Shown here in pieces: positions 6,001 through 44,251 of a stretch of 44,293 bases of DNA; positions within the stretch are counted from its first letter, which is position 1, and every line of letters begins with the position of its first letter. Position numbers and translations under genes: made by a program. Below the pieces are notes generated by a model. That model was not told the DNA's origin and did not search any database. It saw only the letters and a program-made list of their open reading frames with translations. The DNA comes from an uncultured Gammaproteobacteria bacterium (GTDB lineage Bacteria > Patescibacteriota > Microgenomatia > Woykebacterales > RBG-16-39-9b), in NCBI GenBank assembly GCA_964367355.1, contig CAYIWY010000007.1, positions 37,961 to 82,253 on the forward strand, written 5' to 3'.

Positions 6001-9000
6001 TGGAGATATTACCGCTGGTGGTGACATTGTCCCCGGCGGTTGAAGGTGTTATTGAGTTAGGACCAGTCGATCGGTTCCAGTAACCAACAATTCCAGTAGC
6101 AGCACAGGTTTGTCCGGAAACACAAATGGTTGCTGAACTAGCTGCTGCCAAGTCGGGTAAGTTAAATGTTTGGCTGCCGATAGTGAGATCGGAAGATGAA
6201 ATCGTCGCCGTAAAGGCAGCTGCACTTGTACTATTTGGTTTTAAGGCGATTGAGTCAGAATTGGCTGTGGTTGATGAAAAGAGTGCGGAGTTTGTTGTGG
6301 TTAAAGTAGCAGCAAAAGCGCCAGAACTTTGGGTGTAGCCAGTAACTCCAGACAAAGCCCCAGCAGTTGTTACGTTCAGGCCTCCTGAAGAAGTAAGTGC
6401 GAAAGTTCCCGAGGTATTACCAACCGAGATGGCGGAGGCATTAGTTGTCCCGATAGATATTGTACCTTTGGTCCCGGAAGTGACAGCGCCAACATCAAGG
6501 CTTAAATTCCCAGAATTTCCTGAGGTACCCCCACCAGCGCCAGTCAGGATCGATATTGTGCCGCCATTGCCAGACGCACCACCTGCACCTGAGCGTAAGT
6601 TTAGCGTCCCACCATTGCCAGAAGTGCTGCCAGCCCCCGCCCTAATAGTTAAAATACCTCCCAAGGCTGTGGCTGTAGTGGAATTGTCAACGGAGATGAC
6701 ATGATCTCGCTCCTTTTGGAAACCAATAGAAGAGCCAGTACCGACATTGCTGATCTGCAAGACATTCCCAGAAGCATTAACGTGAGATTGAGTTAAGGCT
6801 AATACGTTAGCAGAGTCGGTACAAACGTCGTTGGTACCAGTACTACAGTTGCTAGACAAAGAAGCGAGGGCACCAGTTAGGGTTAAAGTTACCGCTGAAG
6901 CTAAGCTATCATCTATAGTGAGGGAGCGGTTAAGGTTAATTAAGTTGGAATTGTTGGTATTGTTAGCGGTGTAAGTTGCGCTGTGATCTAATTCAGCTAA
7001 ATTGGTAGTGGTTCTCAGCCCTGTTGAAGAGAAGCGTGATTTTTGAGTAGCTGCCGCGTCAACAGTGAAATTTGCTGAAGTCAAGGTTATAGCTAAATCA
7101 CCTTTAGTGCTGAGGGCGCTGATGGTGTTACCTATCACATAGGTATCTTGCAGAGATTGACCTGCTCCGCCACCCCCGCCGCCCGCATCAGCTGAACAAG
7201 TCCAGCTGCCGGTGACTTTTTTCAGAATTAAGTCGTCAGAACAAGAAAGTAGACTCAAACCACCGGTAGTAGCGTTTGTGATTTTCTGCAAACCAGAGAA
7301 GCTGGCAGTCGCAGCTCCTCCAGTAGTGGCCAATCTAAAAGTTACGTTAGCAGTGTTTCCAACCGGTTCTGTAACATTAAAGACATCATCATTAAAATCT
7401 AATATAGATAGTGATGAGACCACAGGGACAGTTCTTAAACTGACTGAAGCAGCCCCGGCACCGGTGTTATCCGAGTTACACTCCCAACGGTCACTTGTTT
7501 CATTCCATTTAAGAATTTGACCAGTAGAACAGCCTTGCAATAGGGTAAGACCCGGCGCAAGAAGTTCCAGACCAGAGCCAGAAAAAGTTGTCGTAGATAG
7601 CCCATCAGTTGGGGATGGTAGAAGTATCCCCAAGCTAGCGCCTTCTGTTCCTGTTAGCGTTAGACCACCGCTGGCAGTAGCACTAGATACGTAGTTTCCA
7701 GTCGTATCAGTACCTAAGGCAACAGAATCAAGTGCAATAGTAAGAGCAGTAGTACCACCAGCGCCTAAAGTGGCGGTGACATCGCCGGTGAAAGTGTGGC
7801 CGGAGAGAATAATTGTGCCGGAGGCATCAGGTATTGTGATAGTTTTGTCTGTAGTTGTTGGGTCGGTGACGGCTATGTAGGTTTCGATCAAATTATCCGT
7901 TAACCCTTCAAAGATCAGACCAGACTGACCAAACTTTGCTTGGTTAGTCGTGAGTGTATGATCACTAGATAGGGCAGCGCTGGTATCAAAGCTCAACGTT
8001 ACCGCACCAGCCAAACCACCGCCGGTTAGACCAAGACCAGCAGCGACAGATGTGATGACACCAGAGACTTCAGTTTCATCAATACCCCCATCCAGGACAT
8101 TTAGTTCAGCAGAACTAATGGAAACACTGTTGGAAAGAATATCGTTAGCTCCGATATTAATGGCGTTAACAATACCGGCAGCAGATACATCAATCGCGTC
8201 AGTGATGGTACCAACAGTTGTAGTAAAAAGAATCCCATCAGTGTAGGCGAGGGCTACGTTGGCGTCAAAGGTTAGGTTATTTCCAAGGGCATCGCCTAAA
8301 TTAACTTTTAGGTTGCCGGTAGTAGTCAGCAGAGAAATAATTGGCCCCCCAGTATAGGCATCCTGCAAACTAGCAGCTCCGGTGTTGTCGTCAGAACAAC
8401 TAATGACACCGGACGCGTTGGCTGTTAATGCACCTCCGGCGGAGTTTCCAGTACAGTTAAATCCGGAAAAGGTGAGGTTGCCAGTGCCTTTATCTAAAGT
8501 AAGACCATTAGCAGAAACAGTACCGCCTTCATTCGTATCACCCAATACTAGATTTACATCGTTCGAGATCCCATCGTTGTCGTTTAGTGTCAAAGTCCCA
8601 GTGAGGGTACCGCCAGTTAGTGGGAGGTAGTTGGAAGCAGTAATTGTGTCTGGTATATCACCGTCCACTATTGCACTAACGGTAAATGTGCCACCGGCAG
8701 AACTTTGTCGAACAAATTGATTAGCACCACCAGTTGCTGAGAGATCAGCCCCAGTCCCACCATTTGCAAGAGCAACGATTCCAGTTACGTTACCAGCAGT
8801 AGTTGCCGTTGTTGATGTAGCAGCATTTCCATTAATATTAATAGAATAGGTTCCCGCAGAAAGAGCATTGGCAGTAATTGTTCCAGTACCTGTTGGTGAA
8901 AGTGTGCTGAGATTACCAACCTGTAAAGCTTGATTTGTATTAATTCCTGATGTAATTGTGGCGAAGGTTGGTGTCCCACCGGTCGTATCCGCTGCACAAG

Positions 9001-12097: not shown

Positions 12098-12597
12098 AAA
12101 AAGAATTTACGTTATTTACCACGGCAGTTTATGACACTAAAGGTTTATATCGCTTGATTGACCAGATTACCTCAATCAACAAAAACCTTTATCACAATTT
12201 GCCGGGAACGATTGTTAGTAAAACTAAAGGTCTTCTCGCGCCAAGTTTAGAGGCGATCTTTGGTTATATAGAAGAGGCGGGTTTAGAACCAGAAGGTGAC
12301 GGTGCCCAAAAACAATTTTTAGAACAAATCGTCACTGAATTAAAAGCAGTTCCACTGGTCAAGATAACCTTGGCTTTTGAACCGGATGATAGTTTTACCT
12401 CAAAACTAAATGAAACGATCAGTGCTCAGGCAGGGCAAAAGGTAATACTCGACATCAGTGTTAATCATCATATTGTTGCGGGAGCAGTGGTTGAGTACCT
12501 AGGAAGGTATAAGGACTACAGTTTGGAACCAAAAGTTGACCAGTACTTGAAAGAAACGGTTAAGAAAGAGATGTTAACCGAAAAGGAAAATATCTAA
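12094..12597 (+). CDS. atpH: F-type ATPase subunit delta (OSCP)
   Basis: 167 aa, located between the b and alpha genes. The C-terminal segment VILDISVNHHIVAGAVVEYLGRYKDYSL fits the delta/OSCP pattern (..GGi.v..g....D.S). Confidence 0.7.
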   Translation: MKKEFTLFTTAVYDTKGLYRLIDQITSINKNLYHNLPGTIVSKTKGLLAPSLEAIFGYIEEAGLEPEGDGAQKQFLEQIVTELKAVPLVKITLAFEPDDSFTSKLNETISAQAGQKVILDISVNHHIVAGAVVEYLGRYKDYSLEPKVDQYLKETVKKEMLTEKENI

Positions 12598-12619
12598 TTT
12601 CCACTCCGGGGGTGGAAAT
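12597..12619. repeat. REP-like hairpin (atttccac-tccgggg-gtggaaat) between atpH and atpA
   Basis: 8-bp perfect stem starting at the last base of the atpH stop codon. Its arm and loop are related to the hairpins flanking the RAYT gene. Confidence 0.6.
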
Positions 12620-15112: not shown

Positions 15113-15137
15113 AATGTACACCTCCGAGGTGTACATT
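15113..15137. repeat. REP-like hairpin (aatgtacacc-tccga-ggtgtacatt) between atpG and atpD
   Basis: 10-bp perfect stem. The arm tgtacacc is identical to the arm of the hairpin immediately upstream of the RAYT gene. Confidence 0.7.
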
Positions 15138-15147
15138 GGAGGAATAG

Positions 15148-16521
<1,374 letters not shown>

Positions 16522-16527
16522 CAACAC

Positions 16528-16545
16528 GACAAGGACGGGCCTTGG
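16528..16545. repeat. Copy A of the caagg-N5-ccttg palindrome family (gacaaggacgggccttgg), between atpD and atpC
   Basis: The core caaggacgggccttg is identical to the copies at 40388 and 41186. Its 3' arm runs into the GGAGGA Shine-Dalgarno sequence of atpC. Confidence 0.6.
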
Positions 16546-16553
16546 AGGATAAA

Positions 16554-17838: not shown

Positions 17839-18210
17839 ATGACAAAAATTTTAATAGTTGAGGACGATATCAGCCTATTAAATCTTTACAACGAAGTATT
17901 AAAAAAAGAAGGTTTTGAAATTGAGCTAGCTGACGACGGTCAGCAGGCTTTACTAAAAGCTGAGACGTTTATTCCAGATGTGGTCTTGCTTGATCTAATG
18001 CTGCCGTATATTGATGGTTTTGAAGTTCTGGAAAAACTAAAATCAAATCCAATCACAAAGGACGCTAGGGTAATAGTTCAGACCAATCTTGATTCAGAAA
18101 TCCAAAAAGAAAAAGCGCTTAAACTTGGAGCCTCTGAATTTTTAGTAAAATCAGACGATAATCCAGGAAGTTTACTCAAAGAAATCAAGAAACTCCTCGC
18201 AATATATTGA
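17839..18210 (+). CDS. Single-domain CheY-like response-regulator receiver
   Basis: KILIVEDD...VVLLDLMLPYIDGFEVLEKLK...VIVQTNL...K. 123 aa with no output domain. Confidence 0.9.
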   Translation: MTKILIVEDDISLLNLYNEVLKKEGFEIELADDGQQALLKAETFIPDVVLLDLMLPYIDGFEVLEKLKSNPITKDARVIVQTNLDSEIQKEKALKLGASEFLVKSDDNPGSLLKEIKKLLAIY

Positions 18211-18237
18211 CAAGGCCCGTCCTTGTCAATATTTTTT
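18204..18237 (+). terminator. Copy B of the palindrome family: atattgacaagg-cccgt-ccttgtcaatat plus a T-run. It resembles an intrinsic terminator and also reads as TTGACA-N17-TATTTT
   Basis: 12-bp perfect stem that includes the receiver gene stop codon (tga 18208-18210), a 5-nt loop, then ttttt. The same bases give a consensus -35 hexamer (18207-18212) and a -10-like tatttt (18230-18235), 43 nt upstream of ATG 18278. Confidence 0.5.
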
Positions 18238-27968: not shown

Positions 27969-30900
27969 CTATTGTTGGTTGAGGACGAACCAAGTAAACT
28001 TGATCGCTTGCGCTGCCGACGCAGTCGCTTGGTCTGGTAGATCACCACTGTTGCGCTCCAGAGCCACTACAAAGCCTTCTCCGGTTTTTTTCTCTTTGAC
28101 GTAGAGCGACAGACCTCCAGTTTTGGTTGAGGCTGTTATGTTAACTAAAGATTCTTCAGTTATCTTGTCACTTTCGACGAATACCTCAGTTTCATTCTGT
28201 GCAAAACTCGCTTCACCAGCCGTCTTGGCCTCTTTCTTGACCACGGCTTCGCCAAAGACCAACTTTGTAAATTCTCCCAAAGCTGCGGTTACAGATTTAA
28301 AGAAAGCTTCGCCAGTGTCAGACACCCAGGCTACTACTTGACCGGCTGAATTTTCCCAGGCAAATTTCAGGCCAGCAGAGATAGTCGCCACCAAGTTATT
28401 GTCCGAATCTAGCGAAATCAAAGCAGATGAAGTTGCAGCGGTGGGACTTGCTGAGGCAATAGCAACGGAAGGATCAAGCTCAATTAGTTTTTGTGGGTCA
28501 GCGTAGTGAGTATTCACAAAGACCACAACCATTCCCTGACCAGCGCCATCAAAGGATGTCAACGCTCTACCCAGGACGTAGCCGGGTTTGCTCGCCTTCA
28601 TACCTACACCAGCAACAGAAGAACTGGTGATTAGATCCCCAGGCCTTATCGGACCGTTTTCCGTAGTTACTTTCACTGGTACCCTACCGACTAGGGCAAC
28701 CGGTATAGGTCGGCCGTAACCAGCGCCAAAACCATCATCCAAAATTTTCCCTGGTTTGGTAGATACAGCACCCAGTACTTGGTTGTCGTAAGGTCGTCCA
28801 CTCTTAGCTGTTCCAGAAGGAATGGCAGGGTCTATGCTGACTATATCACCGGCAACAATCGTACCATCTCTAGTGTAGTAATTCTCAGCTAGGTCAGCTC
28901 CTACTTGCAGGAGTGCAACGGTGATGGTACCAATGGTACCATCGTCAGAGCCGCTACCGGAAGTACAGATGGTGTAGTTGACCTGTGAGGTGGTCGAAGG
29001 GTAGTCAATAAAAGTGGCACTGGCTGCTGTTTGTTGCCCGCTTGTGGTTCTGAACGTTCCCCAGAAATCAGTGCCGACAATGGTACTGGTACAAGCAGCT
29101 GCTGAGCCAATGTTGCGGCGGACGTGAAATTCCGGTTCTTCATCGTTTGCTTCGTCAGAATTGAGCTGTATTGTGACTGCAATCAATACACCCTGACTAG
29201 TGGCAGTAGGGGTCATATTTGGTTGAGTACCATCCCAGACATCATTTGCCGAAGTGTAAGCCACAGTTTCACCGGTTGAGTCGGTAAAGAAAGCTGAGTC
29301 TGGTAAACCACTTCCACAACTAACTACCCCTGATCCATTTGTAGTTAAACTAGCGCAGCTGGTCAGCCCACCAAATGTAATAGTCCCGCCAGTGGAGTTG
29401 CCAATCGTAATAGTCTGGGCTCTTGCGGCTGTACCAATGAGAATTGAACCGTTACCAGAGGTCGAGGTACCGACGTCCAGCGAGATGTTGCCAGCCGTTC
29501 CCGCCGAAGCATTACCTGTTACCAAAGTAATTCCACCAGTCGCAGTGGTACCGGTCCCAGTATTTAGAGTCACCAAACCAGAGGCTCCAGCACCGTTGTT
29601 GGCCGAGCCGATGGTAGTCGCTGCTCTCGAAGTTAAGTTGGGACCAAAATCGAGCAGGGAAAAATTGTCTGCATCAATGTCACTTGTCCAAGGGGTTTGG
29701 GAGCCACCCCCACAAGCACCGTCAGTTAAGTTACAAAGAATTTTAGGTCCAGTAGCCTCATAAATTTTGAATTTGCTAGCATTTGTGTCGTACCAAATGT
29801 CGCCAGCTGCTGCTCCGGTCACACCGGCGACACTCGTTTTCAAGAAATCCCCAGTAGCAATTGCCACTCGACCATCGGCTGAGTCCAGAGTCAGCCCGGC
29901 TGCGCCGGAGGATATTGTCAAAGCACCACCGGCAGTCATTGTTGTCGTAGTTCCGAGGGAAAGGGTATTGTTGGCACTGCGGAAAAGTTGAACTGGGCTA
30001 GTTACCCCAAGTGATATACCCGATGTTGCTGTTCCGCCGTCATCCCAGGTTTGAATTCTTGATACGATTGTACCGCCAGCCGGATCCCCGACAAAGAACC
30101 TGCCGACTCCGGAGTCGCCGTCAATACCTAAAGCCGGCTGACCGTTGGCCACGAAACTCATCCGATTAGTAAGGCCGCCGACAGTAGCTCGGTAGAGTCC
30201 TAGGTTAGTTCGGTTAGTGAAACCAAATGCGGGCGAGTTAACAGCCCCGTCAGGAATAAATATTTGTCCTGTTGATATTAAATAAGGACCGGTATTAGCG
30301 ATACCGCGGTAAAGAGTAACCGCGTTGGCATCATTGCCCCATTGAATTCCGTTGGCCGGTTGGACGTTGTTGTAGGTGGCTCCATTACAGTCAAAACAAA
30401 TTCCGTAGTGGGTACCAGTAGCATTATATTGATCAGCGATGTTGATAACAACCGAAGTTTGGTCAGCGTCAGCAATTGCGTAAGAACCAATGTTAATAGC
30501 GTTGTTGCGGCAGGTCGCGGTTGCCGGGCAAGCCCCAGCAATCGTGGTTAAATCTAGTGAGTTGGTGGTGTAGGCATTAGCTGCGGCCGTTCCGGCAATT
30601 GTCGGCGAGATTTGTAAACCAGTGGTGGTTGTGCCGGTAGCCGTGAGTGCAGAGGTAAAACTAAGCGCAGCCAATTTTCCGGTGGTCAGGGCGGTGTCAC
30701 TTAGAGCAAAAGCGTTACCGGAAGCTGTAGCCGAGCTAGCAATAATTACCCCGGTAGTGTCTGGGGTTAAGGTAATATTACCGGCACTTCCAGTCCCAAT
30801 GGTTAAACCTGCGGCTGCAGTTAAGTTTGTTCCCAGACCAGTGATATTATTCGAATTGAACGCTAGTCCAGTTGAGGAGAAGTTGTATTCATCCGCTCCG

Positions 30901-32960
30901 GCAATCTGCAGGTTTATTGTTTTCCCACTCACAGCGTTGATATTTAAATCTCCGGTATTGTCTCGGAAGATTGAGTTCACTGTTCCAGCTGGTGGGCTGG
31001 CATCGTCGCTTGTAAAGGTCAGCGAACCATTGGTAGTGGTATCGACTTCTCCGGAAAAACTACCCCCCGGACAGGCTCCCCAGACAGGGATACCGCTAGC
31101 ACCTGCCCCAGAAAGAAGACACTGGCTGCCAGTCTCAGTCTCAACCACTCGGGTGACCACCCCACCAGTAGTAGTGTAAAGAACAGCATTCGCATCGGTA
31201 ATCATGGTGGAGAAAGTGATTGTGCCCGAAGAAGTTAGTCCAGTGGCGCCGGTGATTGCTCCAGCGCCGGTAATATCAATAGTTGGTGTGTTTAAGAAAT
31301 TGGTGTAACCGCCACCGCCACTATTCGAGAAATTGAGACCATCAGCGATTGCAACACTGTCATCGGCATTGTCAATGGCGATTCCCACGTCCAAACCATT
31401 GGTATTGGCACTGGCGGCTTGTTGGATAAACAGCCCTTGGGTTGTCCCGGCGGAGGCAGACGGTGTGCCAATGATTGAAATAACATCAACTGTTCCAGCC
31501 AGGTCTGAAGTCATAGCGACATTTTCTGTACCCAGTAAAGTAAAGTTTGTATCGGTTGTAAAAGTAGGTACGCCGTTAACAGTAATCGTATCCCCGGTAG
31601 TATTACCGATTGCAATTGTGCTGGAGTTTATATTTGTAGTTGAACCATCTGCGCCAGTTAATGTTGTCCCGGAGTCAAATGTCAGGGTTCCCGAGATAAA
31701 GTTGTCAGTCGTATCGCTTCTTAAGAAAGATAATGAGTCGATACCGTCCAAGGAGTCGGAGTTTAGGGCGTAACTAGATGAAGCAATTCTTTGACGTGGG
31801 GTGGCCTCAGCATCGGCACCAATCTTTACGCCTAGGTAGAGTGTGGAGTTGTCAGAGAAAAGACTTGCAGGGATAGCGGTATCGGCTTGTCCAGTGTCTC
31901 CAAGTTGAACTGAAAAGATCCCGTTTTGATCTGGTGTCACTGACCAAGTTTTGGATTCCCAAAGACAAGTGTTGGCACAAGGAGATCCCGTGTCCCCACT
32001 GGTTGAGGTGTAAATCCGATAGACTATGTTGGTTGCGGCAGTCACTGGGTTTCCCGAGGGATCGGTCAATCTTCCCTGGAAAGACAATATTCGAGGTGGA
32101 GTAGCTGCCAGAACAAAACCTTTCTGGATCTCAGTTTTTAGATTGGTAATATCAAGTGGTTTCGGTGCAAACAAGCCTTCCCAGACAAGCAGACCAACCA
32201 CCAAAACTGCTCCAGCACTAGCTGCCCAATTAACGTATTCGCTCATCGGGTGACCACGATAAGCATGCCACCAGCGTGGTTTTTTTACTTTAAACCGTTG
32301 CCAGAAACGCCCACCGTTGACAAGGCCCGGCCTTGTCAAGTTAACAGGATTTGTTTCGTAGACAATGTCTTCCTTATGGAAGTTGAAGAAGTCTTTTAAT
32401 GAGTAGAGGTAACGGTTAATCGATGCTGGTGAAACCTGTTTGGCTTTAAGAAAAGAAGTATATCGGTTTATATCAATCCGACTCACATGGTCAATAACTT
32501 TTTGGTTAATACCGCTGCCCGCAGGTTTTAGCCAGGCAAAAAAGGAGTTGAGATCAGAACGATATTGCTTGGTCGTACTTTCAGGTGCGCCCTGTTCCTG
32601 GATGTGTTCAACGTAGGTTTGAATTGGAGATACTTTGATTACTTCTGATACATTTACTGTGGTTATGGGTAAGACTTGCTCAACTTTATTTAAGTCGTAG
32701 CCTTTTAAAGCCAACCAGTTGGTAAAAGCCTTTAAACTGTAGCCAAAGCGACGAATCGTGCTTTCGGAAAAGTCGGCTTTTAAAATTGCGAGAGCAGCGC
32801 TAATGTGCGAATTATCAAGTTGCGTTTCCGCTGGGAGTTTTTCTAAAACACGGCGAAGATCGGAAACGTAGTTCTTTACTGTGGAACGAGAAGAGTTAGT
32901 TGAGATAAGGTGATTTATGAACTCCGGTAGGAGATTTTGTAGATTTTGAGCTGTTAACAT
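27969..32960 (-). CDS. Giant (1663 aa) membrane-anchored tail-fibre-like surface protein with two N-terminal integrase SAM-like (core-binding) domains and a C-terminal IMC/Peptidase_G2-like domain
   Basis: Complete ORF in the track. The N-terminal ~200 aa are two copies of the Phage_int_SAM pattern (..STVKNYVSDLRRVLEKL...TIRRFGYSLKAFTNWL and ..TTKQYRSDLNSFFAWL...SINRYLYSLKDFFNF), with no recombinase catalytic domain. TM helix VNWAASAGAVLVVGLLVWEGLF. Fibre motif DGIDSLSFLRSDTTDNFISGTLTF. C-terminal segment VALVGRVPVKVTTENGPIRPGDLITSSSVAGVGMKASKPGYVLGRAL. Confidence 0.85.
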   Translation of the reverse strand: MLTAQNLQNLLPEFINHLISTNSSRSTVKNYVSDLRRVLEKLPAETQLDNSHISAALAILKADFSESTIRRFGYSLKAFTNWLALKGYDLNKVEQVLPITTVNVSEVIKVSPIQTYVEHIQEQGAPESTTKQYRSDLNSFFAWLKPAGSGINQKVIDHVSRIDINRYTSFLKAKQVSPASINRYLYSLKDFFNFHKEDIVYETNPVNLTRPGLVNGGRFWQRFKVKKPRWWHAYRGHPMSEYVNWAASAGAVLVVGLLVWEGLFAPKPLDITNLKTEIQKGFVLAATPPRILSFQGRLTDPSGNPVTAATNIVYRIYTSTSGDTGSPCANTCLWESKTWSVTPDQNGIFSVQLGDTGQADTAIPASLFSDNSTLYLGVKIGADAEATPRQRIASSSYALNSDSLDGIDSLSFLRSDTTDNFISGTLTFDSGTTLTGADGSTTNINSSTIAIGNTTGDTITVNGVPTFTTDTNFTLLGTENVAMTSDLAGTVDVISIIGTPSASAGTTQGLFIQQAASANTNGLDVGIAIDNADDSVAIADGLNFSNSGGGGYTNFLNTPTIDITGAGAITGATGLTSSGTITFSTMITDANAVLYTTTGGVVTRVVETETGSQCLLSGAGASGIPVWGACPGGSFSGEVDTTTNGSLTFTSDDASPPAGTVNSIFRDNTGDLNINAVSGKTINLQIAGADEYNFSSTGLAFNSNNITGLGTNLTAAAGLTIGTGSAGNITLTPDTTGVIIASSATASGNAFALSDTALTTGKLAALSFTSALTATGTTTTGLQISPTIAGTAAANAYTTNSLDLTTIAGACPATATCRNNAINIGSYAIADADQTSVVINIADQYNATGTHYGICFDCNGATYNNVQPANGIQWGNDANAVTLYRGIANTGPYLISTGQIFIPDGAVNSPAFGFTNRTNLGLYRATVGGLTNRMSFVANGQPALGIDGDSGVGRFFVGDPAGGTIVSRIQTWDDGGTATSGISLGVTSPVQLFRSANNTLSLGTTTTMTAGGALTISSGAAGLTLDSADGRVAIATGDFLKTSVAGVTGAAAGDIWYDTNASKFKIYEATGPKILCNLTDGACGGGSQTPWTSDIDADNFSLLDFGPNLTSRAATTIGSANNGAGASGLVTLNTGTGTTATGGITLVTGNASAGTAGNISLDVGTSTSGNGSILIGTAARAQTITIGNSTGGTITFGGLTSCASLTTNGSGVVSCGSGLPDSAFFTDSTGETVAYTSANDVWDGTQPNMTPTATSQGVLIAVTIQLNSDEANDEEPEFHVRRNIGSAAACTSTIVGTDFWGTFRTTSGQQTAASATFIDYPSTTSQVNYTICTSGSGSDDGTIGTITVALLQVGADLAENYYTRDGTIVAGDIVSIDPAIPSGTAKSGRPYDNQVLGAVSTKPGKILDDGFGAGYGRPIPVALVGRVPVKVTTENGPIRPGDLITSSSVAGVGMKASKPGYVLGRALTSFDGAGQGMVVVFVNTHYADPQKLIELDPSVAIASASPTAATSSALISLDSDNNLVATISAGLKFAWENSAGQVVAWVSDTGEAFFKSVTAALGEFTKLVFGEAVVKKEAKTAGEASFAQNETEVFVESDKITEESLVNITASTKTGGLSLYVKEKKTGEGFVVALERNSGDLPDQATASAAQAIKFTWFVLNQQ
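32318..32339. repeat. Copy C of the palindrome family (tgacaaggcccggccttgtcaa) inside the coding sequence of 27969..32960
   Basis: Identical 22-mer to copy F. Translated on the minus strand as NLTRPGLVN. Confidence 0.7.
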
Positions 32961-33221: not shown

Positions 33222-33273
33222 ATATACACCTGAAATGTACACCCGGAAATGTACACCCGGCGGGTGTACATTT
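33222..33273. repeat. REP cluster upstream of RAYT: three direct half-sites plus an inverted copy
   Basis: atatacacc (33222-33230), aaatgtacaccc (33233-33244) and aaatgtacaccc (33247-33258), then gggtgtacattt (33262-33273). The last two form a 12-bp stem with a 3-nt loop. Confidence 0.8.
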
Positions 33274-33299: not shown

Positions 33300-33926
33300 A
33301 TGGCAACAAAGAAACGTTATTTTGTTAATGGAAATTATTATCACGTCTTTAATCGGGGAGTCGAGAAGAGAAAAGTATTTCTAAAGGATAACGATTATAA
33401 AAGATTTTCTGAAACGATGGAGCATTGTTTAAAAAATGCCGGTCAGATAACGCGAAAATCTTTAAGGAAAAACACTCAACTTGCACTAGCTCCCGTTGAT
33501 GTAGTCGCTTATTGCTTAATGTCGAACCATTTTCATCTTTTAGTCAAGCAGAACTCTGAGAATGGTATTTCAACCTTCTTCAGTCGTCTGTCTAATAGCT
33601 ATACTAAGTATTTCAATACGAAATACGATCGGGTCGGGCCGTTGTTTCAAGGACCATTCAAGACGGTAAATATTGAAACTGATAGCCAACTCTTGCATCT
33701 CTCACGTTACATTCACCTCAACCCGGTTGTTTCAGGTATTACAGACGATCCTAGGGCGTTCCAGTGGTCTTCGTACAAGGATTATATTAGCGACAATGAG
33801 ACTTTTATTAAGCCTGAGATTGTTCTTGGAAATTTTATCAGTCGAGAGGACTACCAGCAGTTTGTCTTAGATCAAATAGATTACGCTCGAACATTGGAGG
33901 AACTAAAACATCTCTCCCTTGACTAA
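33300..33926 (+). CDS. REP-associated tyrosine transposase (RAYT; IS200-like HUH/Y1 transposase)
   Basis: YYHVFNRG, HUH motif SNHFHLLV and catalytic-Tyr motif SRYIHLNPV, in the order expected for Y1_Tnp/RAYT proteins. 208 aa. Flanked on both sides by related hairpins. Confidence 0.85.
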   Translation: MATKKRYFVNGNYYHVFNRGVEKRKVFLKDNDYKRFSETMEHCLKNAGQITRKSLRKNTQLALAPVDVVAYCLMSNHFHLLVKQNSENGISTFFSRLSNSYTKYFNTKYDRVGPLFQGPFKTVNIETDSQLLHLSRYIHLNPVVSGITDDPRAFQWSSYKDYISDNETFIKPEIVLGNFISREDYQQFVLDQIDYARTLEELKHLSLD

Positions 33927-33930
33927 GAAA

Positions 33931-33953
33931 GTGTCCACCCTCCGGGTGGACAT
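33931..33953. repeat. REP hairpin downstream of RAYT (gtgtccaccc-tcc-gggtggacat)
   Basis: 9-bp perfect stem beginning 5 nt after the RAYT stop, followed by ttt. Confidence 0.75.
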
Positions 33954-40370: not shown

Positions 40371-40406
40371 TAGCCTGCAATATACTCCAAGGACGGGCCT
40401 TGTCAA
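40371..40406. repeat. Copy D: 36-bp direct repeat tagcctgcaatatactccaaggacgggccttgtcaa. On the minus strand it reads TTGACA-N16-TATATT
   Basis: 35/36 identical to 41169-41204. Lies 5 nt beyond the brnA stop codon. Confidence 0.7.
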
Positions 40407-40411
40407 TGATA

Positions 40412-40672
40412 TTATTCTTTGGTAGAGCGGTGGAGGATAGAGGATGCAAGGGTTTGATATGGTATTCCTTCCTCGGCTGCTTTAACTTTCAACTTGTGTA
40501 AATCCCTTTCGGTCAAGCGAATATTAATGTTTCTGGTTTTATTTAATGTATTTCTGGCCGCTTCTTCAAGCAATGCTTTTTCCTTGGCAAAATCTTTAAC
40601 TCTAACTAATTTGCCTTCTTCAAAGGCCTTTACGATTTCTTCTTCTTCTTCATCTAAAGTATAGTACTTCAT
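40412..40672 (-). CDS. brnA: BrnA-like (RHH/CopG-type) antitoxin
   Basis: C-terminal INIRLTERDLHKLKVKAAEEGIPYQTLASSILH matches the BrnA pattern (ISLRLP...L..LK..A....VPYQSLIK..L). Lies 4 nt downstream of the toxin gene. Confidence 0.7.
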   Translation of the reverse strand: MKYYTLDEEEEEIVKAFEEGKLVRVKDFAKEKALLEEAARNTLNKTRNINIRLTERDLHKLKVKAAEEGIPYQTLASSILHRSTKE

Positions 40673-40675
40673 AAT

Positions 40676-40948
40676 TTATTTACTCCTTAAATATTTTTTA
40701 GTCGCCTTTCTGTTAGGAATAATAGTTTTTAAAAAAGTTTTTTTCTCCTCCCTAACATAAGGCACTAAGTAAGCATAATTATTAATTTCTACAACCATAA
40801 TTCTTTGATTAGGATAACGTCTTTGGTTGGGGTGAGGGAACGTATCCAGTAATCGACCTTCTTCTACAGCTAATTTTACTTCTTCAAAACCAATGTTTCT
40901 TTCTTTGTTTAACTTTTTATTCTTTTCCTCATCCCAATCAAAGTACAC
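40676..40948 (-). CDS. brnT: BrnT-like (DUF497) ribonuclease toxin
   Basis: N-terminal YFDWDEEKNKKLNKERNIGFEEV matches (F/I)xWDExKxxxNxxKHGxxFeE. C-terminal IIPNRKATKKY matches ISxRxAxxxE. Toxin-first gene order, as in brnTA. Confidence 0.75.
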   Translation of the reverse strand: MYFDWDEEKNKKLNKERNIGFEEVKLAVEEGRLLDTFPHPNQRRYPNQRIMVVEINNYAYLVPYVREEKKTFLKTIIPNRKATKKYLRSK

Positions 40949-40954
40949 ACGATT

Positions 40955-40983
40955 ATTTTATGACAAAACATATGATTTGTCAA
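40955..40983 (-). promoter_or_regulatory. Consensus-like sigma70 promoter of brnTA with an embedded inverted repeat
   Basis: The minus strand reads TTGACA (40983-40978), a 17-nt spacer, then TAAAAT (40960-40955). The spacer carries TGACAAA-N8-TTTGTCA. The GTG start at 40948 is only 6 nt past the -10 element, which suggests a leaderless or near-leaderless mRNA. Confidence 0.55.
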
Positions 40984-41168
40984 TTTTAAACAGTTGGAAA
41001 ATTTTTCCTGCGGAAACTAGAGGACAGCCCTGCACTTTTTTAACCTGTCTGCCGACAGGCAGGCGCGTCGAAGCTAACGCCGGTTTTAACCCACTTTACG
41101 AGCATTGCGTTAAGCGATAATTTAATATTCATCTTTATCCTTAATACTTGTAACATGACACTTGTTTC

Positions 41169-41204
41169 TAGCCTGTAATATACTCCAAGGACGGGCCTTG
41201 TCAA
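41169..41204. repeat. Copy E: 36-bp direct repeat tagcctgtaatatactccaaggacgggccttgtcaa. On the minus strand it reads TTGACA-N16-TATATT
   Basis: 35/36 identical to 40371-40406. Lies about 110 nt beyond the stop of 41313..42752. Confidence 0.7.
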
Positions 41205-41312: not shown

Positions 41313-42752
41313 CTAATTGACAATCCACCAATCGAAGGATAGGTCAAAGTTTAGAGCTTGATCGAGTTCAACTGTGAAATCTTGATCAGGATTTTTTGAA
41401 GCAATAAATAGCGATTGGCCTTTGGCCGAATTCAAGAGCGAGGTGAATATTTTCGAATTAGCCTTAACCAAGCTTGATTCTATAATTACCGAAGTTTCTC
41501 CGGCTTTAATTACCATCGTGCCGGAAGTTTTATCGCCGGCTATTTTGAGTTCGCCGGTAGTTAGATCCTCTGTCTCGATCGACTTGGCAATCAGTTTATT
41601 GGAAATTGTCAGATCGCCAATTAAGTTAATGGAACCGGAGATTTCAAGCTGACCTTTACTATCAAGCTTGATCAGGTTGGACCCAAGAGTGATCGAGTTA
41701 TTGACAACCAAGTTGTCAGTCGTGATGTTGATCGCGACCAAGTCGGCGGTGGTAATATTTTCCATTCCGGTTAATGTGGTTGGCAGCCCAGCGTTTAGTG
41801 GTGGTGCCCAGTAACCACCTTGGACAAAAACCAGGATTTTCCCCTGACAAGGCCCGGCCTTGTCAATGTCGCAGGCAAAACTTTCAAGTGCCTTTCCAAC
41901 AATCGGTCCAGGTTGAGTGGCTTTCATTGCAACCCCAGGGGTTGAAGAAGACGTTAGATAATCACCAACTTCAATTGGGCCGTTCTCACTTGAAACTTTG
42001 GTTGGCACGCGTCCCGCGAGTGCAAGTTTCGCCAAGTATTGTGGTTTTCCAAGTTCGTCAGGATTATCAATAAATGTTGGATCGGTACTTTGAATTCCCA
42101 GTAAGGTTTTTTGATAAGGCGAACCAGATTTCTTGACCGTAAAATCAGTTGCAGCCGTATCAATTGCCAAAACATCACCAGCTTCTAAGGACTCACTGGC
42201 AACTGCTCGTTCGGCGATATCAAAGGTTCCGGTCCGGTTCCAGTAGCTACAAGTTCCACCAGTTCCTTTCCAGAAAATTCGAGTATTAGTGGAGTCAAAA
42301 CCAAAGTCACCATTGGCTAGGGAAGCACAAGTTGGTGCGGCTTGGGCGGTATTAAGATTGAAACCAACGGCGGTGGTTGAGCCACCCGAGGCAGTAATTG
42401 CTCCACTAAAATAATTGAGTCCACCAGCAGAGTAGATCGAATAGCTAGTCGTAGATCCAAATTGGTTGGCGATATACAAACCATAACTGGTGGTTGTACT
42501 GGCATCCCCAAAATTAACAATATTGATTCCATATGCAGTTGTTGGCACTGAACTTAACCAAGTTTTTGATAAGCTGAGTCCGTAAGCGGTGGTAATTGCA
42601 CCACCAATTCCACCTGCGGATCTTACAGCAATAAATGTACCGTAAAGAGAGGTAATTGCAGTATTGGAAGATTGGTATGCGGTAATTTGAGCGCCTAGTA
42701 CTGAGGAAGCGGTTGAACCAACCCCACCCTGCCAGTTGGCGCTGGTGACCAA
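41313..42752 (-). CDS. C-terminal fragment of a frameshifted fibre gene (IMC/G2-like domain plus a conserved tail module)
   Basis: The track ORF begins at an arbitrary TTG. The same frame stays open upstream to the stop at 42927-42929 and reads fibre-like sequence there (GNSAFGGNASVNANRIIYADESFTGSG..). It contains LALAGRVPTKVSSENGPIEVGDYLTSSSTPGVAMKATQPGPIVGKAL. Confidence 0.8.
   Translation of the reverse strand: MVTSANWQGGVGSTASSVLGAQITAYQSSNTAITSLYGTFIAVRSAGGIGGAITTAYGLSLSKTWLSSVPTTAYGINIVNFGDASTTTSYGLYIANQFGSTTSYSIYSAGGLNYFSGAITASGGSTTAVGFNLNTAQAAPTCASLANGDFGFDSTNTRIFWKGTGGTCSYWNRTGTFDIAERAVASESLEAGDVLAIDTAATDFTVKKSGSPYQKTLLGIQSTDPTFIDNPDELGKPQYLAKLALAGRVPTKVSSENGPIEVGDYLTSSSTPGVAMKATQPGPIVGKALESFACDIDKAGPCQGKILVFVQGGYWAPPLNAGLPTTLTGMENITTADLVAINITTDNLVVNNSITLGSNLIKLDSKGQLEISGSINLIGDLTISNKLIAKSIETEDLTTGELKIAGDKTSGTMVIKAGETSVIIESSLVKANSKIFTSLLNSAKGQSLFIASKNPDQDFTVELDQALNFDLSFDWWIVN
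41845..41866. repeat. Copy F of the palindrome family (tgacaaggcccggccttgtcaa) inside the coding sequence of 41313..42752
   Basis: Identical 22-mer to copy C but read in a different frame, as DIDKAGPCQ. Confidence 0.7.
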
Positions 42753-42850: not shown

Positions 42851-44251
42851 TTATTCGGTTAGCGTTGACACTGGCGTTGCCACCAAAAGCGGAGTTTCCC
42901 CAGCAACAGCCAGAGTAGTAGCGATACTAAGGCCACCACCGGCGGTGAAGTTAGTCCCGGCGGCACCAATATTGGTTGCGAGATTATTATTAAAATTTAT
43001 GTTTCCGGCCATAGTTCCACCGCCTAAAGGAAGGTAATTTGAAGCAGTAATTGTATCGGGAATGGCAGCGTCACCAACACAATTAGTACAAGTGAAGGTT
43101 CCCAAGACACTCAAAGTCGTTCCGGCATCAAGTGTCAAAGTTCCGGAGGTAAAGTTATCCGAAGTATCAGATCGTAAGAATTGAGTTGAATCGATTGAAT
43201 CAAGCAAGTCAGCATCAACCCCACTGCCAGCTAAATTAAATGTGATCGTGTTGTTGGCATCATTAGCTGTGATCGTGACTCCGGCACCAGCAACAAAGGA
43301 AATATCCCCACCATTATTTTTAACTCCAGCAATACTGGAAACAGCTTCGTTGATTAGTGAAAGAGCAAAAGTATTACCGGTTCGGGCGACATTTATTCCG
43401 GTTCCGGTCAGGTTTAATCCCGAAAGGCCAGTGTTAACCGAGGTATCGGCAATATCTTTTATCGTCGCGGCTGTCCAAAATTGATCAGAACTACAGGTTA
43501 AAAGCTGGGCAATGTCGAGGGTTAGCACACACGCCCCAGTTGCTCCGGAGAGGTTAGGAAAGGTAATTTCTTTACTCAAAATCTTTTTTACATCGATCGT
43601 TTCAACCTCTAGGCTATCGTTAGTAATCAGAGAATTATCGGCAGAAATAGGAGCCGAGGAGTCAGAGATAATGGTTTTTTGGATTACGACTTCTTGTTTT
43701 TCGTTAATTGTTATAACTTTGTTCACATTGGTTAAGCCTAGTGGATCAGTTGAATTGGAGTTAGCAGGTTTGGCTTCTTTGATAAATTCCGCTAGAACTT
43801 TACCTACGGGGCGACCAACACTTTTTTTAAAGCTCGAATCGGGGAGGTTGATAAACACACTGGTTGATAAAAAGATGACAAAACCGACCGATCCGAGCAT
43901 TAACAGAGATTTACTAGCACCTTTGTAAGCGCTTACCAGGGTCGAGAGATCCATTGGTTTTTTTAGAAATTTCTTTCTCTCTTCGTCCAAAATCTTTTTT
44001 ATTTCCTCGACACTTTTTCCTGCCTTCAACATATTGTCAATAAAAACTAGACGATCAAGAGCAGTGGCGGGAAACTGACCGTTGAGAAGGCGGGGGACTA
44101 GGCTCGCATTAACATAATTTTCAATTGTTTGGTGGTGGTTATCCCCAAGCTCAACACCGTGGTCTAAAGCACGGCCGATGAGTTGGTCAATATTAATTAA
44201 TTGATCGCGTTGATATGGACTTTGTTCTAAATACATGGGATGAGTTCGCAA
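42851..44251 (-). CDS. N-terminal fragment of the same fibre gene (MerR-like HTH, TM helix, tail-fibre repeats)
   Basis: TTG at 44251, or ATG at 44236 (MYLEQSPYQ..). MerR-like segment TIENYVNASLVPRLL...LDRLVFIDNMLKAGKSVEEIKKIL. TM helix SLLMLGSVGFVIFLSTSVFINL. Fibre motifs DSIDSTQFLRSDTSDNFTSGTLTL and IPDTITASNYLPLGGGTMAG. Confidence 0.8.
   Translation of the reverse strand: MRTHPMYLEQSPYQRDQLINIDQLIGRALDHGVELGDNHHQTIENYVNASLVPRLLNGQFPATALDRLVFIDNMLKAGKSVEEIKKILDEERKKFLKKPMDLSTLVSAYKGASKSLLMLGSVGFVIFLSTSVFINLPDSSFKKSVGRPVGKVLAEFIKEAKPANSNSTDPLGLTNVNKVITINEKQEVVIQKTIISDSSAPISADNSLITNDSLEVETIDVKKILSKEITFPNLSGATGACVLTLDIAQLLTCSSDQFWTAATIKDIADTSVNTGLSGLNLTGTGINVARTGNTFALSLINEAVSSIAGVKNNGGDISFVAGAGVTITANDANNTITFNLAGSGVDADLLDSIDSTQFLRSDTSDNFTSGTLTLDAGTTLSVLGTFTCTNCVGDAAIPDTITASNYLPLGGGTMAGNINFNNNLATNIGAAGTNFTAGGGLSIATTLAVAGETPLLVATPVSTLTE

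What the first reader, a model, noticed from the sequence alone, without database searches (positions are those of the whole stretch)
41845..41866. An identical 22-nt perfect palindrome is embedded in two coding sequences in different reading frames
tgacaaggcccggccttgtcaa occurs at 32318-32339 inside gene 27969..32960, where it is read as NLTRPGLVN. It also occurs at 41845-41866 inside gene 41313..42752, where it is read as DIDKAGPCQ. The same DNA in two frames cannot be explained by protein homology. In the alignment of the three IMC-like domains, the copy at 41845 falls in a loop that is 6 aa longer than in the 27969..32960 paralog (FACDIDKAGPCQGK versus FDGAGQGM). That fits an in-frame insertion of a ~21-nt element. 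This is reminiscent of Rickettsia palindromic elements, which insert into ORFs, but here the element is much shorter and belongs to a family also found between genes.
Basis: seen in the sequence. Interest (0 to 1): 0.75.

Follow-up and report, generated by a model that had tools for sequence, protein, structure and literature searches.

The report
REP-type palindrome inside two genes
The identical 22-base palindrome in two genes is real. It belongs to a family of small hairpin repeats that, in other genomes, flank a REP-associated (RAYT-like) transposase gene, so it is a new variant of a known kind of selfish repeat and not a new kind of element.

Summary
TGACAAGGCCCGGCCTTGTCAA occurs exactly at 32318-32339 and 41845-41866, inside two genes on the minus strand, read as NLTRPGLVN and DIDKAGPCQ. 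The core CAAGG-N5-CCTTG occurs 6 times in 44 kb, against 0.1 expected.

The window is a Patescibacteria (CPR) chromosome, not a phage. Scans of public genomes and metagenomes show (T)TGACAAGG-N5-CCTTGTCA(A) as a multi-copy family. The arms are constant and the loops are genome-specific. In about 13 independent loci it lies 5-45 bp from both ends of one clade of Y1/HUH transposase genes, and also inside them. The best NCBIfam hit of these genes is REP-associated tyrosine transposase. That is the REP-RAYT arrangement.

The window has a paralogous RAYT-like gene (33300-33926), but a different palindrome family flanks it. The cognate transposase for this family was not found.

Only two of the three reading frames are stop-free, and both are used widely: 57 of 153 metagenome copies lie in long ORFs.

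A simple 21-nt insertion is not shown for the copy at 41845. Its right arm encodes the Cys-Gln of a CQGK motif that palindrome-free homologues also have. In conserved enzymes of other genomes the palindrome adds no length, while in other proteins it adds about 7 residues.

Verdict: a new variant of a known kind, of moderate interest.

The parts
41845..41866 (.). Genic copy of palindrome family F1 (TGACAAGGCC-C-GGCCTTGTCA, then A). It is read on the minus strand as (I)DKAGPCQ in the loop after GKALESF of the 479-aa protein.
32317..32339 (.). Genic copy of F1, a perfect 11+1+11 palindrome. It is read on the minus strand as LTRPGLVN, in the linker after the integrase SAM-like N-terminal domains and before the predicted membrane-spanning (hydrophobic) stretch of the 1663-aa protein.
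18204..18232 (.). Intergenic F1 copy (12+5+12, loop CCCGT). It starts within the last bases of ORF 17839-18210 and is followed by a T-run, so it looks like a terminator on the + strand. The minus strand reads TTGACA-N17-TATATT.
   Evidence: RNA fold -15.8 kcal/mol, z -4.7
16527..16547 (.). Intergenic F1 core CAAGGACGGGCCTTG between atpD (15148-16521) and atpC. The outer arms are degenerate.
40371..40406 (.). Intergenic F1 copy with a 17-nt extension (TAGCCTGCAATATACTC + CAAGGACGGGCCTTG + TCAA). The minus strand reads TTGACA-N16-TATATT. It lies just after the BrnA-like gene.
41169..41204 (.). Second intergenic F1 copy with the same 17-nt extension, upstream of the BrnT/BrnA-like pair (40412-40948, minus strand).
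41313..42752 (-). Host gene 1: a 479-aa surface-type protein whose C-terminal region resembles the autoproteolytic IMC type. The loop after GKALExF varies greatly in length among homologues.
27969..32960 (-). Host gene 2: a 1663-aa protein with an N-terminal Phage_int_SAM-like domain (aa 113-195), a hydrophobic stretch, a long Thr/Gly/Ser-rich region, and a C-terminal domain paralogous to host gene 1.
33300..33926 (+). RAYT-like Y1/HUH transposase gene (LMSNHFHLL and RYIHLNP motifs). It is 38-42% identical to the clade whose genes are flanked by F1 palindromes in other genomes, but here family F2 flanks it.
33247..33273 (.). F2 palindrome AAATGTACACCCG-g-CGGGTGTACATTT, 26 bp upstream of the RAYT-like gene, preceded by a direct duplicate of its left arm.
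33931..33953 (.). F2-variant palindrome TGTCCACCC-tcc-GGGTGGACA, 5 bp downstream of the RAYT-like gene.
15113..15137 (.). Dispersed F2 copy AATGTACACCTC-c-GAGGTGTACATT between atpG and atpD.
12597..12619 (.). F3 palindrome ATTTCCAC-tccgggg-GTGGAAAT between atpH and atpA. The same family flanks a second RAYT paralogue (P0142) in locus L176. L176 comes from the same run series, and for both P0142 and the window's own RAYT (P0123) the longest contig on record is 82,762 bp.

Best explanation
The 22-23-nt palindrome is a member of a REP-type repeat family, (T)TGACAAGG-N5-CCTTGTCA(A). This family is maintained together with one clade of RAYT-like Y1/HUH single-strand DNA transposases.

Inferred mechanism, from what is known of IS200/IS605 TnpA and E. 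coli TnpA-REP: the element folds into a hairpin on single-stranded DNA, and the transposase recognises the conserved stem and cuts and joins next to it. Copies are therefore made from masters within the genome, which would explain genome-specific loops on universal arms.

CPR genomes have very little intergenic space, so many copies end up in coding DNA. Only copies in the two stop-free frames survive (LTRxxLV and DKxxPCQ; the third frame contains TGA). They survive where the protein tolerates those residues, in linkers and surface loops.

The two copies in this window are such survivors. One sits in the linker after an integrase-SAM-like domain. The other sits in a Cys-bracketed, hypervariable loop. 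They most likely have no function for the host proteins.

Whether a given copy arrived by a 21-nt insertion or by a short conversion-like overwrite of similar native sequence is not resolved. Both outcomes are seen across genomes.
For: Shown:
(1) Non-random multi-copy family in the window: 6 cores against 0.1 expected.
(2) A genome scan by pattern alone found 50 stretches, with multi-copy families and genome-specific loops in Ca. Thiodubiliella, Woesebacteria, Shapirobacteria, Saccharibacteria and uncultured gammaproteobacterial MAGs.
(3) In 13 loci a Y1_Tnp gene (Pfam PF01797; only NCBIfam hit NF047646, REP-associated tyrosine transposase) has the palindrome 5-45 bp from one or both ends, and in most of them a copy inside as well. 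RAYT homologues of other subclades carry other palindromes.
(4) The same design holds in this genome for two other pairs: F2 flanks the window's RAYT, and F3 flanks paralogue P0142.
(5) A compensatory arm variant, TGACAGGG...CCCTGTCA, keeps the stem intact.
(6) 57 of 153 metagenome copies lie in ORFs of at least 150 codons, 35 in the LTR frame and 22 in the DK frame.
(7) The genic copies fold as 10-bp stems, -15 to -16 kcal/mol.
(8) Intragenic REPs are already documented for the GTAG and CGTC REP families (PMC3733652).
Against: No clade-A RAYT gene flanked by F1 was found in the 44-kb window or in the 13.6-kb sister contig, so the cognate enzyme of this genome is only inferred. The family lacks the GTAG/CGTC tag of classical REPs. 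The RAYT hits are below NCBIfam's equivalog cut-off (53 against 80 bits). No transposition or cleavage has been observed. No presence/absence polymorphism could be tested, because no close relative (above 45% identity) of the host protein exists in the databases searched. The length-neutral copies in conserved enzymes are not what simple transposition predicts. The genic hairpins are not significantly more stable than shuffles (z about -1.9).
Confidence: 0.72

Rival explanations
1. One reading: a very short RPE-like mobile element (about 21 nt) was inserted in frame and added 6-7 codons to the loop of the 479-aa protein, and likewise to the linker of the 1663-aa protein.
For: The loop is 6 aa longer than in the paralogue and in the closest homologue P0001. 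In other genomes some host proteins are 6-7 aa longer exactly at the palindrome: L126 +7, L165 +7, L037 +6, and tsaD +6 where the copy is a doublet. The same loop in homologue P0018 carries a palindromic segment of roughly 100 nt.
Against: The right arm encodes the Cys-Gln of a CQGK motif that palindrome-free homologues share. P0017 reads TATTGTCAGGGCAAGATCCTGG where the window reads CCTTGTCAGGGGAAAATCCTGG, and the window's loop is 2 aa shorter than P0017's. Copies in LigA, Nth, ArgRS, GltB and SerRS add no residues, and the Obg copy sits in a loop 3 residues shorter. There is no sequence or size relation to RPEs (106-150 bp, from my own knowledge).
Confidence: 0.3
2. The motif is a DNA uptake signal (USS/DUS-like). 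It would accumulate inside genes through biased uptake plus homologous recombination, which would explain length-neutral copies in housekeeping genes and conserved arms with lineage 'dialects'.
For: There are length-neutral copies in conserved enzymes, some at the same codon position in diverged orthologues: ArgRS in L021 and L031, and SerRS in L053, L078 and L167. The genic fraction is high. Patescibacteria commonly encode competence genes (my own knowledge, not tested here).
Against: It does not explain why the palindrome sits 5-45 bp from the ends of one RAYT clade in 13 loci, or why other RAYT subclades have other palindromes in the same positions. Known USS/DUS are not hairpins in themselves. 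Loops are homogeneous within a genome but differ between close lineages. The density in the window is low, about 1 per 7 kb.
Confidence: 0.07
3. The palindrome is a selected cis-regulatory site: an operator for a dimeric DNA-binding protein, a promoter -35 element (TTGACA on both strands), or a terminator/RNA hairpin. The genic copies would then be internal regulatory sites.
For: The intergenic copies at 40388 and 41186 are among the best sigma-70-like matches in the region scanned (TTGACA-N16-TATATT, 11 of 12) and share a 17-nt extension. In L176 the same extended element lies 160 bp upstream of a gene in the right orientation. The copy at 18204-18232 looks like an intrinsic terminator.
Against: The two genic copies have no -10-like hexamer at 16-18 bp on either strand and no T-run (sequence read directly). 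Promoter-like matches in the region scanned are not enriched over shuffles (36 against 30). The promoter at 40388 would point antisense into a convergent gene. A regulator site does not explain the RAYT flanking.
Confidence: 0.12
4. The two identical palindromes are crossover sites for a tyrosine recombinase (shufflon-like) that rearranges the two surface-protein genes. The idea comes from the integrase SAM-like domain next to the copy at 32318.
For: The sites are identical, both lie in surface-type protein genes, and one is adjacent to a Phage_int_SAM-like domain.
Against: The 1663-aa protein has no recombinase catalytic domain. The 9.5 kb between the sites includes leuS and the RAYT gene. 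The central region of 1-5 bp is unlike the 6-8-bp overlap regions of tyrosine recombinase sites (my own knowledge). The motif occurs in dozens of unrelated housekeeping genes elsewhere.
Confidence: 0.02

Closest known systems
REP / RAYT systems (E. coli REP-BIME with TnpA-REP; Pseudomonas REPINs with RAYTs)
   Same: Both are short (20-40 nt) GC-rich hairpin repeats, dispersed in many copies. Inverted copies flank a Y1/HUH transposase gene, each transposase lineage has its own repeat family, and several families can coexist in one genome (PMC3733652).
   Different: This family has no GTAG or CGTC tag. Copies are mostly single, not REPIN doublets. About a third of copies are inside long ORFs. 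A copy sits inside the transposase gene itself. The hosts are Patescibacteria and SUP05-type symbionts. No paper in the held library was found linking RAYTs or REPs to Patescibacteria.
Intragenic GTAG/CGTC REPs (Di Nocera et al. 2013, PMC3733652), including the short R. conorii RPE-4 and RPE-6
   Same: They are REP-size palindromes translated as part of known proteins, found in unrelated genes including replication and repair genes.
   Different: Those are described as insertions that add residues, often as dimers encoding 20-30 aa. Here many copies are length-neutral in conserved enzymes.
Rickettsia palindromic elements (RPE-1 type; Ogata et al. 2000, my own knowledge)
   Same: They are palindromic selfish DNA tolerated in frame inside protein-coding genes, on surface-exposed segments.
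   Different: RPEs are about 100-150 bp and add 30-50 residues. They have no known transposase partner and are confined to Rickettsia. There is no sequence similarity to this family.
IS200/IS605 TnpA and its subterminal hairpins
   Same: Same enzyme superfamily (PF01797, with HUH and Tyr motifs). DNA hairpins near the gene ends act as the recognition elements.
   Different: The gene here is not a multi-copy IS. The repeats are dispersed on their own. No tnpB is present.
DNA uptake sequences (Haemophilus USS, Neisseria DUS; my own knowledge)
   Same: They are short motifs that are abundant inside genes without changing protein length, used in preferred reading frames, sometimes paired as terminators.
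   Different: USS/DUS are not linked to a transposase gene and are not hairpins in themselves. Uptake bias was not tested here.

Membership tests
REP (repetitive extragenic palindrome) | Short (about 20-40 nt) palindrome able to form a stem-loop | tested here: met
   Arms of 10-12 bp with loops of 1-5 nt. Folds of -15 to -16 kcal/mol. Compensatory arm variant TGACAGGG/CCCTGTCA.
REP (repetitive extragenic palindrome) | Many dispersed copies per genome, well above chance | tested here: met
   Six cores in 44 kb against 0.1 expected. Two more in a 13.6-kb sister contig. At least 17 in Ca. Thiodubiliella. The whole genome of the window's organism was not available.
REP (repetitive extragenic palindrome) | Association with a RAYT gene flanked by the repeats (REPtron) | tested here: inconclusive
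   Met for the same palindrome in 13 loci of other genomes. In this window the RAYT-like gene is flanked by family F2, not F1, and no F1-flanked RAYT of this organism was found.
REP (repetitive extragenic palindrome) | GTAG or CGTC tetranucleotide tag at one end (the two superfamilies of PMC3733652) | tested here: not met
   No conserved flanking base beyond T/A next to the arms in 74, 30, 14 and 21 aligned copies.
REP (repetitive extragenic palindrome) | Extragenic location | tested here: not met
   Two of 6 copies in the window and 57 of 153 in metagenome loci are inside long ORFs.
RAYT (REP-associated tyrosine transposase), for ORF 33300-33926 | Y1/HUH fold with an HUH motif and a catalytic Tyr | tested here: met
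   PF01797 at E 1.4e-8. LMSNHFHLL and RYIHLNP align with homologues. NF047646 is the only NCBIfam hit, but at 52.9 bits against a cut-off of 80.
RAYT (REP-associated tyrosine transposase), for ORF 33300-33926 | Palindromic repeats flank the gene, and the same repeats are dispersed elsewhere | tested here: met
   F2 at 33247-33273 and 33931-33953, with a dispersed copy at 15113-15137.
REPIN (doublet of inverted REPs as the mobile unit) | Two REPs in inverted orientation separated by a short spacer | tested here: not met
   All six F1 copies in the window are singletons. Doublets do exist in other genomes, for example tsaD in L072 and the KGRTLF-TDKVRPCH type.
Rickettsia palindromic element (RPE) | A palindromic element of about 100-150 bp inserted in frame, adding tens of residues | tested here: not met
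   The element is 21-23 nt. Net insertion is not shown.
DNA uptake sequence (USS/DUS) | Preferential uptake of DNA carrying the motif by competent cells | not testable with these tools
   Only indirect features (length-neutral genic copies) are compatible. The RAYT flanking argues against it.
Intrinsic terminator | GC-rich hairpin followed directly by a T-run at a gene end | tested here: not met
   The two genic copies have no T-run. The intergenic copy at 18204-18232 does meet it.
Sigma-70-type promoter | A -35 hexamer with a -10 hexamer 16-18 bp downstream | tested here: not met
   The genic copies have TTGACA (or TGACA) but no -10 (sequence). The intergenic copies at 40388 and 41186 match 11 of 12 positions.

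The most novel reading that the evidence does not exclude
This RAYT-linked palindrome family spreads mainly by overwriting short stretches of coding sequence that already resemble it, through a conversion-like, length-neutral process, and not only by insertion. It would then act as a sequence drive inside essential genes (LigA, Nth, ArgRS, SerRS, GltB, Obg, and even the RAYT gene itself) across Patescibacteria and some symbiotic Gammaproteobacteria. Loops would be re-homogenised to each genome's master copy.
Probability: 0.25. Interest if true: 0.75.

Novelty: new variant of a known kind. Interest (0 to 1): 0.55.

Why it matters
REP/RAYT systems are known mainly from Proteobacteria, and as extragenic repeats. 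This case shows a tag-less REP family with the same arms in very distant lineages (CPR and SUP05 symbionts). About a third of its copies are translated, including copies inside essential enzymes and inside its own transposase gene.

Three consequences follow. First, annotation: peptides such as LTRxxLV and DKxxPCQ in CPR proteins are repeat-encoded, not homologous motifs. Second, it shows how ultra-compact genomes accommodate selfish DNA. Third, the length-neutral copies may point to a copying mechanism other than simple transposition.

For this window specifically, the identical 22-mer in two genes has an ordinary, already known kind of explanation.

Tried and rejected
- Phage origin. No megablast match to phages, and the window encodes ATP synthase, LeuRS and histidine kinases.
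- Known RNA families and tRNAs. None found.
- Literature search for the motif itself. It returned only primers and shRNAs.
- Close orthologues for a presence/absence test. The best homologue of the 479-aa protein is 45% identical. The N-terminal part of the 1663-aa protein has only 2 weak homologues, and the linker is not alignable.
- Same-organism contigs in the metagenome scan. None found.
- The window's own RAYT as partner of F1. Rejected, because F2 flanks it and none of its 241 closest homologues carries an F1-encoded peptide.
- Pre-existing similarity test. In six length-neutral cases, palindrome-free homologues match the arms at 47 of 96 positions (25% expected at random), about the same as flanking DNA identity (0.47-0.61). 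This is suggestive, but the sample is small and confounded by protein constraint.
- The apparent ORF-free stretch at 2270-9650. It is a giant minus-strand ORF that runs off the window.
- Recombinase-site (shufflon) idea. Rejected: no catalytic domain, and an essential gene lies between the sites.
Full report
**Observation.** The 22-mer TGACAAGGCCCGGCCTTGTCAA is present exactly at 32318-32339 and 41845-41866. A one-mismatch copy lies at 18208-18229. No shuffle of the window gave any match. As perfect palindromes the two copies span 32317-32339 (11+1+11) and 41845-41865 (10+1+10). The 15-nt core CAAGG-N5-CCTTG occurs six times against 0.10 expected. The four intergenic copies (16530, 18211, 40388, 41186) share the core CAAGGACGGGCCTTG or its reverse complement, one loop base different from the two genic copies. 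Both host ORFs are on the minus strand. They read the element as NLTRPGLVN and DIDKAGPCQ.

**Context.** The window is not a phage. It carries an F-type ATP synthase operon, leuS, sensor kinases and large surface proteins. Homologues of its proteins come from Patescibacteria, mostly the Microgenomates group. Positions 1-10162 are a single giant minus-strand ORF that leaves the window. Gene 27969-32960 encodes N-terminal integrase-SAM-like domains (Pfam match at aa 113-195). The palindrome follows at residues about 207-215, then a hydrophobic stretch, a long Thr/Gly/Ser-rich region, and a C-terminal domain paralogous to that of gene 41313-42752.

**What the element is.** A pattern scan of one genome per species for TTGACAAGG-N5-CCTTGTCAA returned 50 stretches. 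Several genomes hold multi-copy families, each with its own loop:
- Ca. Thiodubiliella: TCGAA, at least 17 copies
- Woesebacteria Ch104a: ACGGA
- Shapirobacteria: TTAGA
- Saccharibacteria: GCAGC
- uncultured gammaproteobacterial MAGs: GGGGC

. None of those was from the window's organism.

In these loci, chosen by the palindrome alone, a Y1/HUH transposase gene recurs (Pfam PF01797; its only NCBIfam hit is NF047646, REP-associated tyrosine transposase, below the cut-off). In 13 loci the palindrome lies 5-45 bp from one or both ends of that gene. In most of them another copy lies inside it, in the stretch between the catalytic RYIHLNP motif and YSSY. Homologues belonging to other subclades are flanked by other palindromes instead: ACACACAT..ATGTGTGT in L028 and TGCAGGC..GCCTGCA in L050. 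This is the REP-RAYT (REPtron) arrangement described in PMC3733652 and the REPIN/RAYT literature. A compensatory arm variant, TGACAGGG...CCCTGTCA, preserves the stem. No conserved flank or GTAG/CGTC tag exists.

**This genome.** The window itself encodes a RAYT-like protein (33300-33926; HUH and Tyr motifs; 38-42% identical to the F1-linked clade). It is flanked by a different palindrome family, F2 (ATGTACACC-N5-GGTGTACAT, at 33247-33273 and a variant at 33931-33953), which also occurs between atpG and atpD. A second paralogue (P0142, 52% identical) lies on locus L176. L176 comes from the same run series, and the longest contig on record for P0142 and for the window's RAYT (P0123) is 82,762 bp in both cases. 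P0142 is flanked by a third family, F3 (ATTTCCAC-N7-GTGGAAAT), which the window has between atpH and atpA. L176 also holds two more F1 copies. So the organism has at least three hairpin families of the same design, and two of them are visibly paired with their own RAYT. The RAYT for F1 is inferred, not seen. None of the 241 closest homologues of the window's RAYT carries an F1-encoded peptide, so the internal copy is specific to the F1-linked clade.

**Why two frames.** Of the three frames of the palindrome (the same on both strands), one contains TGA. The other two give LTRxxLV(N/K) and (I/L)DKxxPC(Q/H). Both are used widely. Of 153 copies in the metagenome loci, 57 lie in ORFs of at least 150 codons: 35 in the LTR frame and 22 in the DK frame. 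Hosts include LigA, Nth, Obg, ArgRS, SerRS, TsaD, QueA, UppP, GltB, a reverse transcriptase and glycosyltransferases. The window's two copies show exactly these two frames. One metagenome glycosyltransferase even carries the same 21-mer, read as LTRPGLV.

**Insertion or overwrite?** Results are mixed.

Against structure-solved homologues:
- LigA, Nth, ArgRS and GltB show no length change at the palindrome.
- Obg is 3 residues shorter.
- In Nth the native ELV lies under the right arm, and in GltB the native VE lies under the loop.

Among the loci themselves:
- SerRS, two other proteins, and the internal RAYT copies are length-neutral or shorter.
- Other hosts are longer by 6-7 residues (L126, L165, L037; tsaD, where the copy is a doublet) or by more.
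- In six length-neutral cases the palindrome-free homologue matches the arms at 47 of 96 positions, about the same as the flanking DNA identity. This is a small and confounded sample.

For the copy at 41845:
- The loop is 6 aa longer than in the paralogue and in homologue P0001.
- Many homologues have Cys-bracketed loops of variable length ending in CQGK.
- The window's loop is 2 aa shorter than that of P0017.
- The right arm CCTTGTCAG coincides with P0017's native TTGTCAGGG.
- The same loop in P0018 holds a strongly palindromic segment of roughly 100 nt (about 30 extra residues), so the site does tolerate repeats.

For the copy at 32318 the linker cannot be aligned with the few homologues available. 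A net 21-nt insertion is therefore possible but not demonstrated. A short overwrite of a native C-x7-CQGK loop fits the data equally well.

**Function.** The genic copies have no -10 hexamer and no T-run. Their hairpins (about -15 kcal/mol) are not significantly more stable than shuffles. I take them to be tolerated passengers. Some intergenic copies may have been put to use. The copy at 18204-18232 looks like a terminator. The copies at 40371-40406 and 41169-41204 carry a shared 17-nt extension that creates TTGACA-N16-TATATT on the minus strand, and they bracket a BrnT/BrnA-like pair. A similar extended copy lies upstream of a gene in L176. None of this can be tested here.

**Rivals.**
- An uptake-signal reading would explain the length-neutral genic copies but not the RAYT flanking.
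- A regulatory-site reading fits some intergenic copies but not the genic ones.
- A recombinase-site reading is contradicted by the missing catalytic domain and by the essential gene between the sites.
- Chance is excluded.

**Novelty and score.** The kind is known: REP/RAYT, and intragenic REPs (PMC3733652). What appears new is this tag-less family with cross-phylum constant arms, its high translated fraction, its copy inside the transposase gene, and the length-neutral copies in essential enzymes. I found no paper in the held library that links RAYTs or REPs to Patescibacteria. I rate it a new variant of a known kind, interest 0.55.

Noticed in passing
window 1-10162 (minus strand): One stop-free ORF of at least 3387 codons (ATG at 10162) runs off the left end of the window. 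It is a giant Thr/Gly/Ser-rich surface-type protein. The + strand ORFs listed in this stretch are spurious.
   Followed up: partly
window 12597-12619, 15113-15137, 33247-33273, 33931-33953; L176 7630-7658 and 8331-8379: There are two further palindrome families (F2 ATGTACACC-N5-GGTGTACAT; F3 ATTTCCAC-N7-GTGGAAAT). Each flanks its own RAYT paralogue, and each has dispersed copies in the intergenic gaps of the atp operon.
   Followed up: partly
window 40371-41204; L176 10950-11812: Toxin-antitoxin pairs are bracketed by two F1 copies: BrnT/BrnA-like at 40412-40948 in the window, and an 88-aa protein plus a PIN-domain protein in L176. The upstream copy carries a 17-nt extension that forms a sigma-70-like promoter on one strand. 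This could be cassette-like mobilisation or promoter delivery by the repeat.
   Followed up: no
L010, L015, L027, L034, L042, L076, L084, L112, L135, L155 (inside the RAYT genes): RAYT genes of the F1-linked clade carry an F1 copy inside their own coding sequence, between the catalytic RYIHLNP motif and YSSY. Most are in the LTR frame; the copy in L042 is in the DK frame, with a duplicated LDKV. The canonical sequence at that position in other RAYTs is NPVVSGLV-like, so the right arm overlaps native GLV codons.
   Followed up: partly
L021 about 5400-5430 and L031 about 2140-2170 (ArgRS): Two ArgRS genes with low overall identity (roughly 25-30%, judged by eye from the alignment) carry the palindrome at the same codon, after GFINF. 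Their loops differ, and the one in L031 matches the loop family of its own MAG (L010, same assembly). The 13 nt after the palindrome (YGAGCTTGAGAAG) are identical at 12 of 13 positions.
   Followed up: partly
metagenome loci L054-L173: The loop orientation is biased relative to the coding strand. ACGGA against TCCGT is 24:3 in genes and 17:8 between co-directional genes. TCGGA against TCCGA is 12:8 and 9:2. Redundant contigs were not removed. The bias could reflect a strand-specific single-strand DNA mechanism or peptide tolerance.
   Followed up: partly
window 33233-33262 and 41866-41876; L035 3350-3400; L039 about 1235-1270; L042 228-265: One arm, or the whole palindrome, is directly duplicated next to many copies. 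Examples are AAATGTACACCCGG twice upstream of the window's RAYT, and GACATTGACA at the copy at 41845. This suggests slippage or template switching at the hairpins.
   Followed up: no
L174 (gene for P0018), loop after GKALEDFTC: A homologue of the 479-aa protein has a strongly self-complementary segment of roughly 100 nt (the 159-nt loop region folds at -66 kcal/mol) in the same Cys-bracketed loop. It is translated as VIASEAKQSQ...SPRNDVIAIPTLRRGKQS. P0020 has an ENSLKIENCKLKI-type stretch at the same place.
   Followed up: partly
window 42851-44251 and 41313-42752 (minus strand): The 466-aa ORF (N-terminal region, a hydrophobic stretch, and a DSIDSTQFLRSDTSDNF motif like that of the 1663-aa protein) and the 479-aa ORF (TTG start, C-terminal domain) are separated by only 99 nt. 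Together they resemble one gene of the 1663-aa type, so this may be a split or mis-started gene.
   Followed up: no
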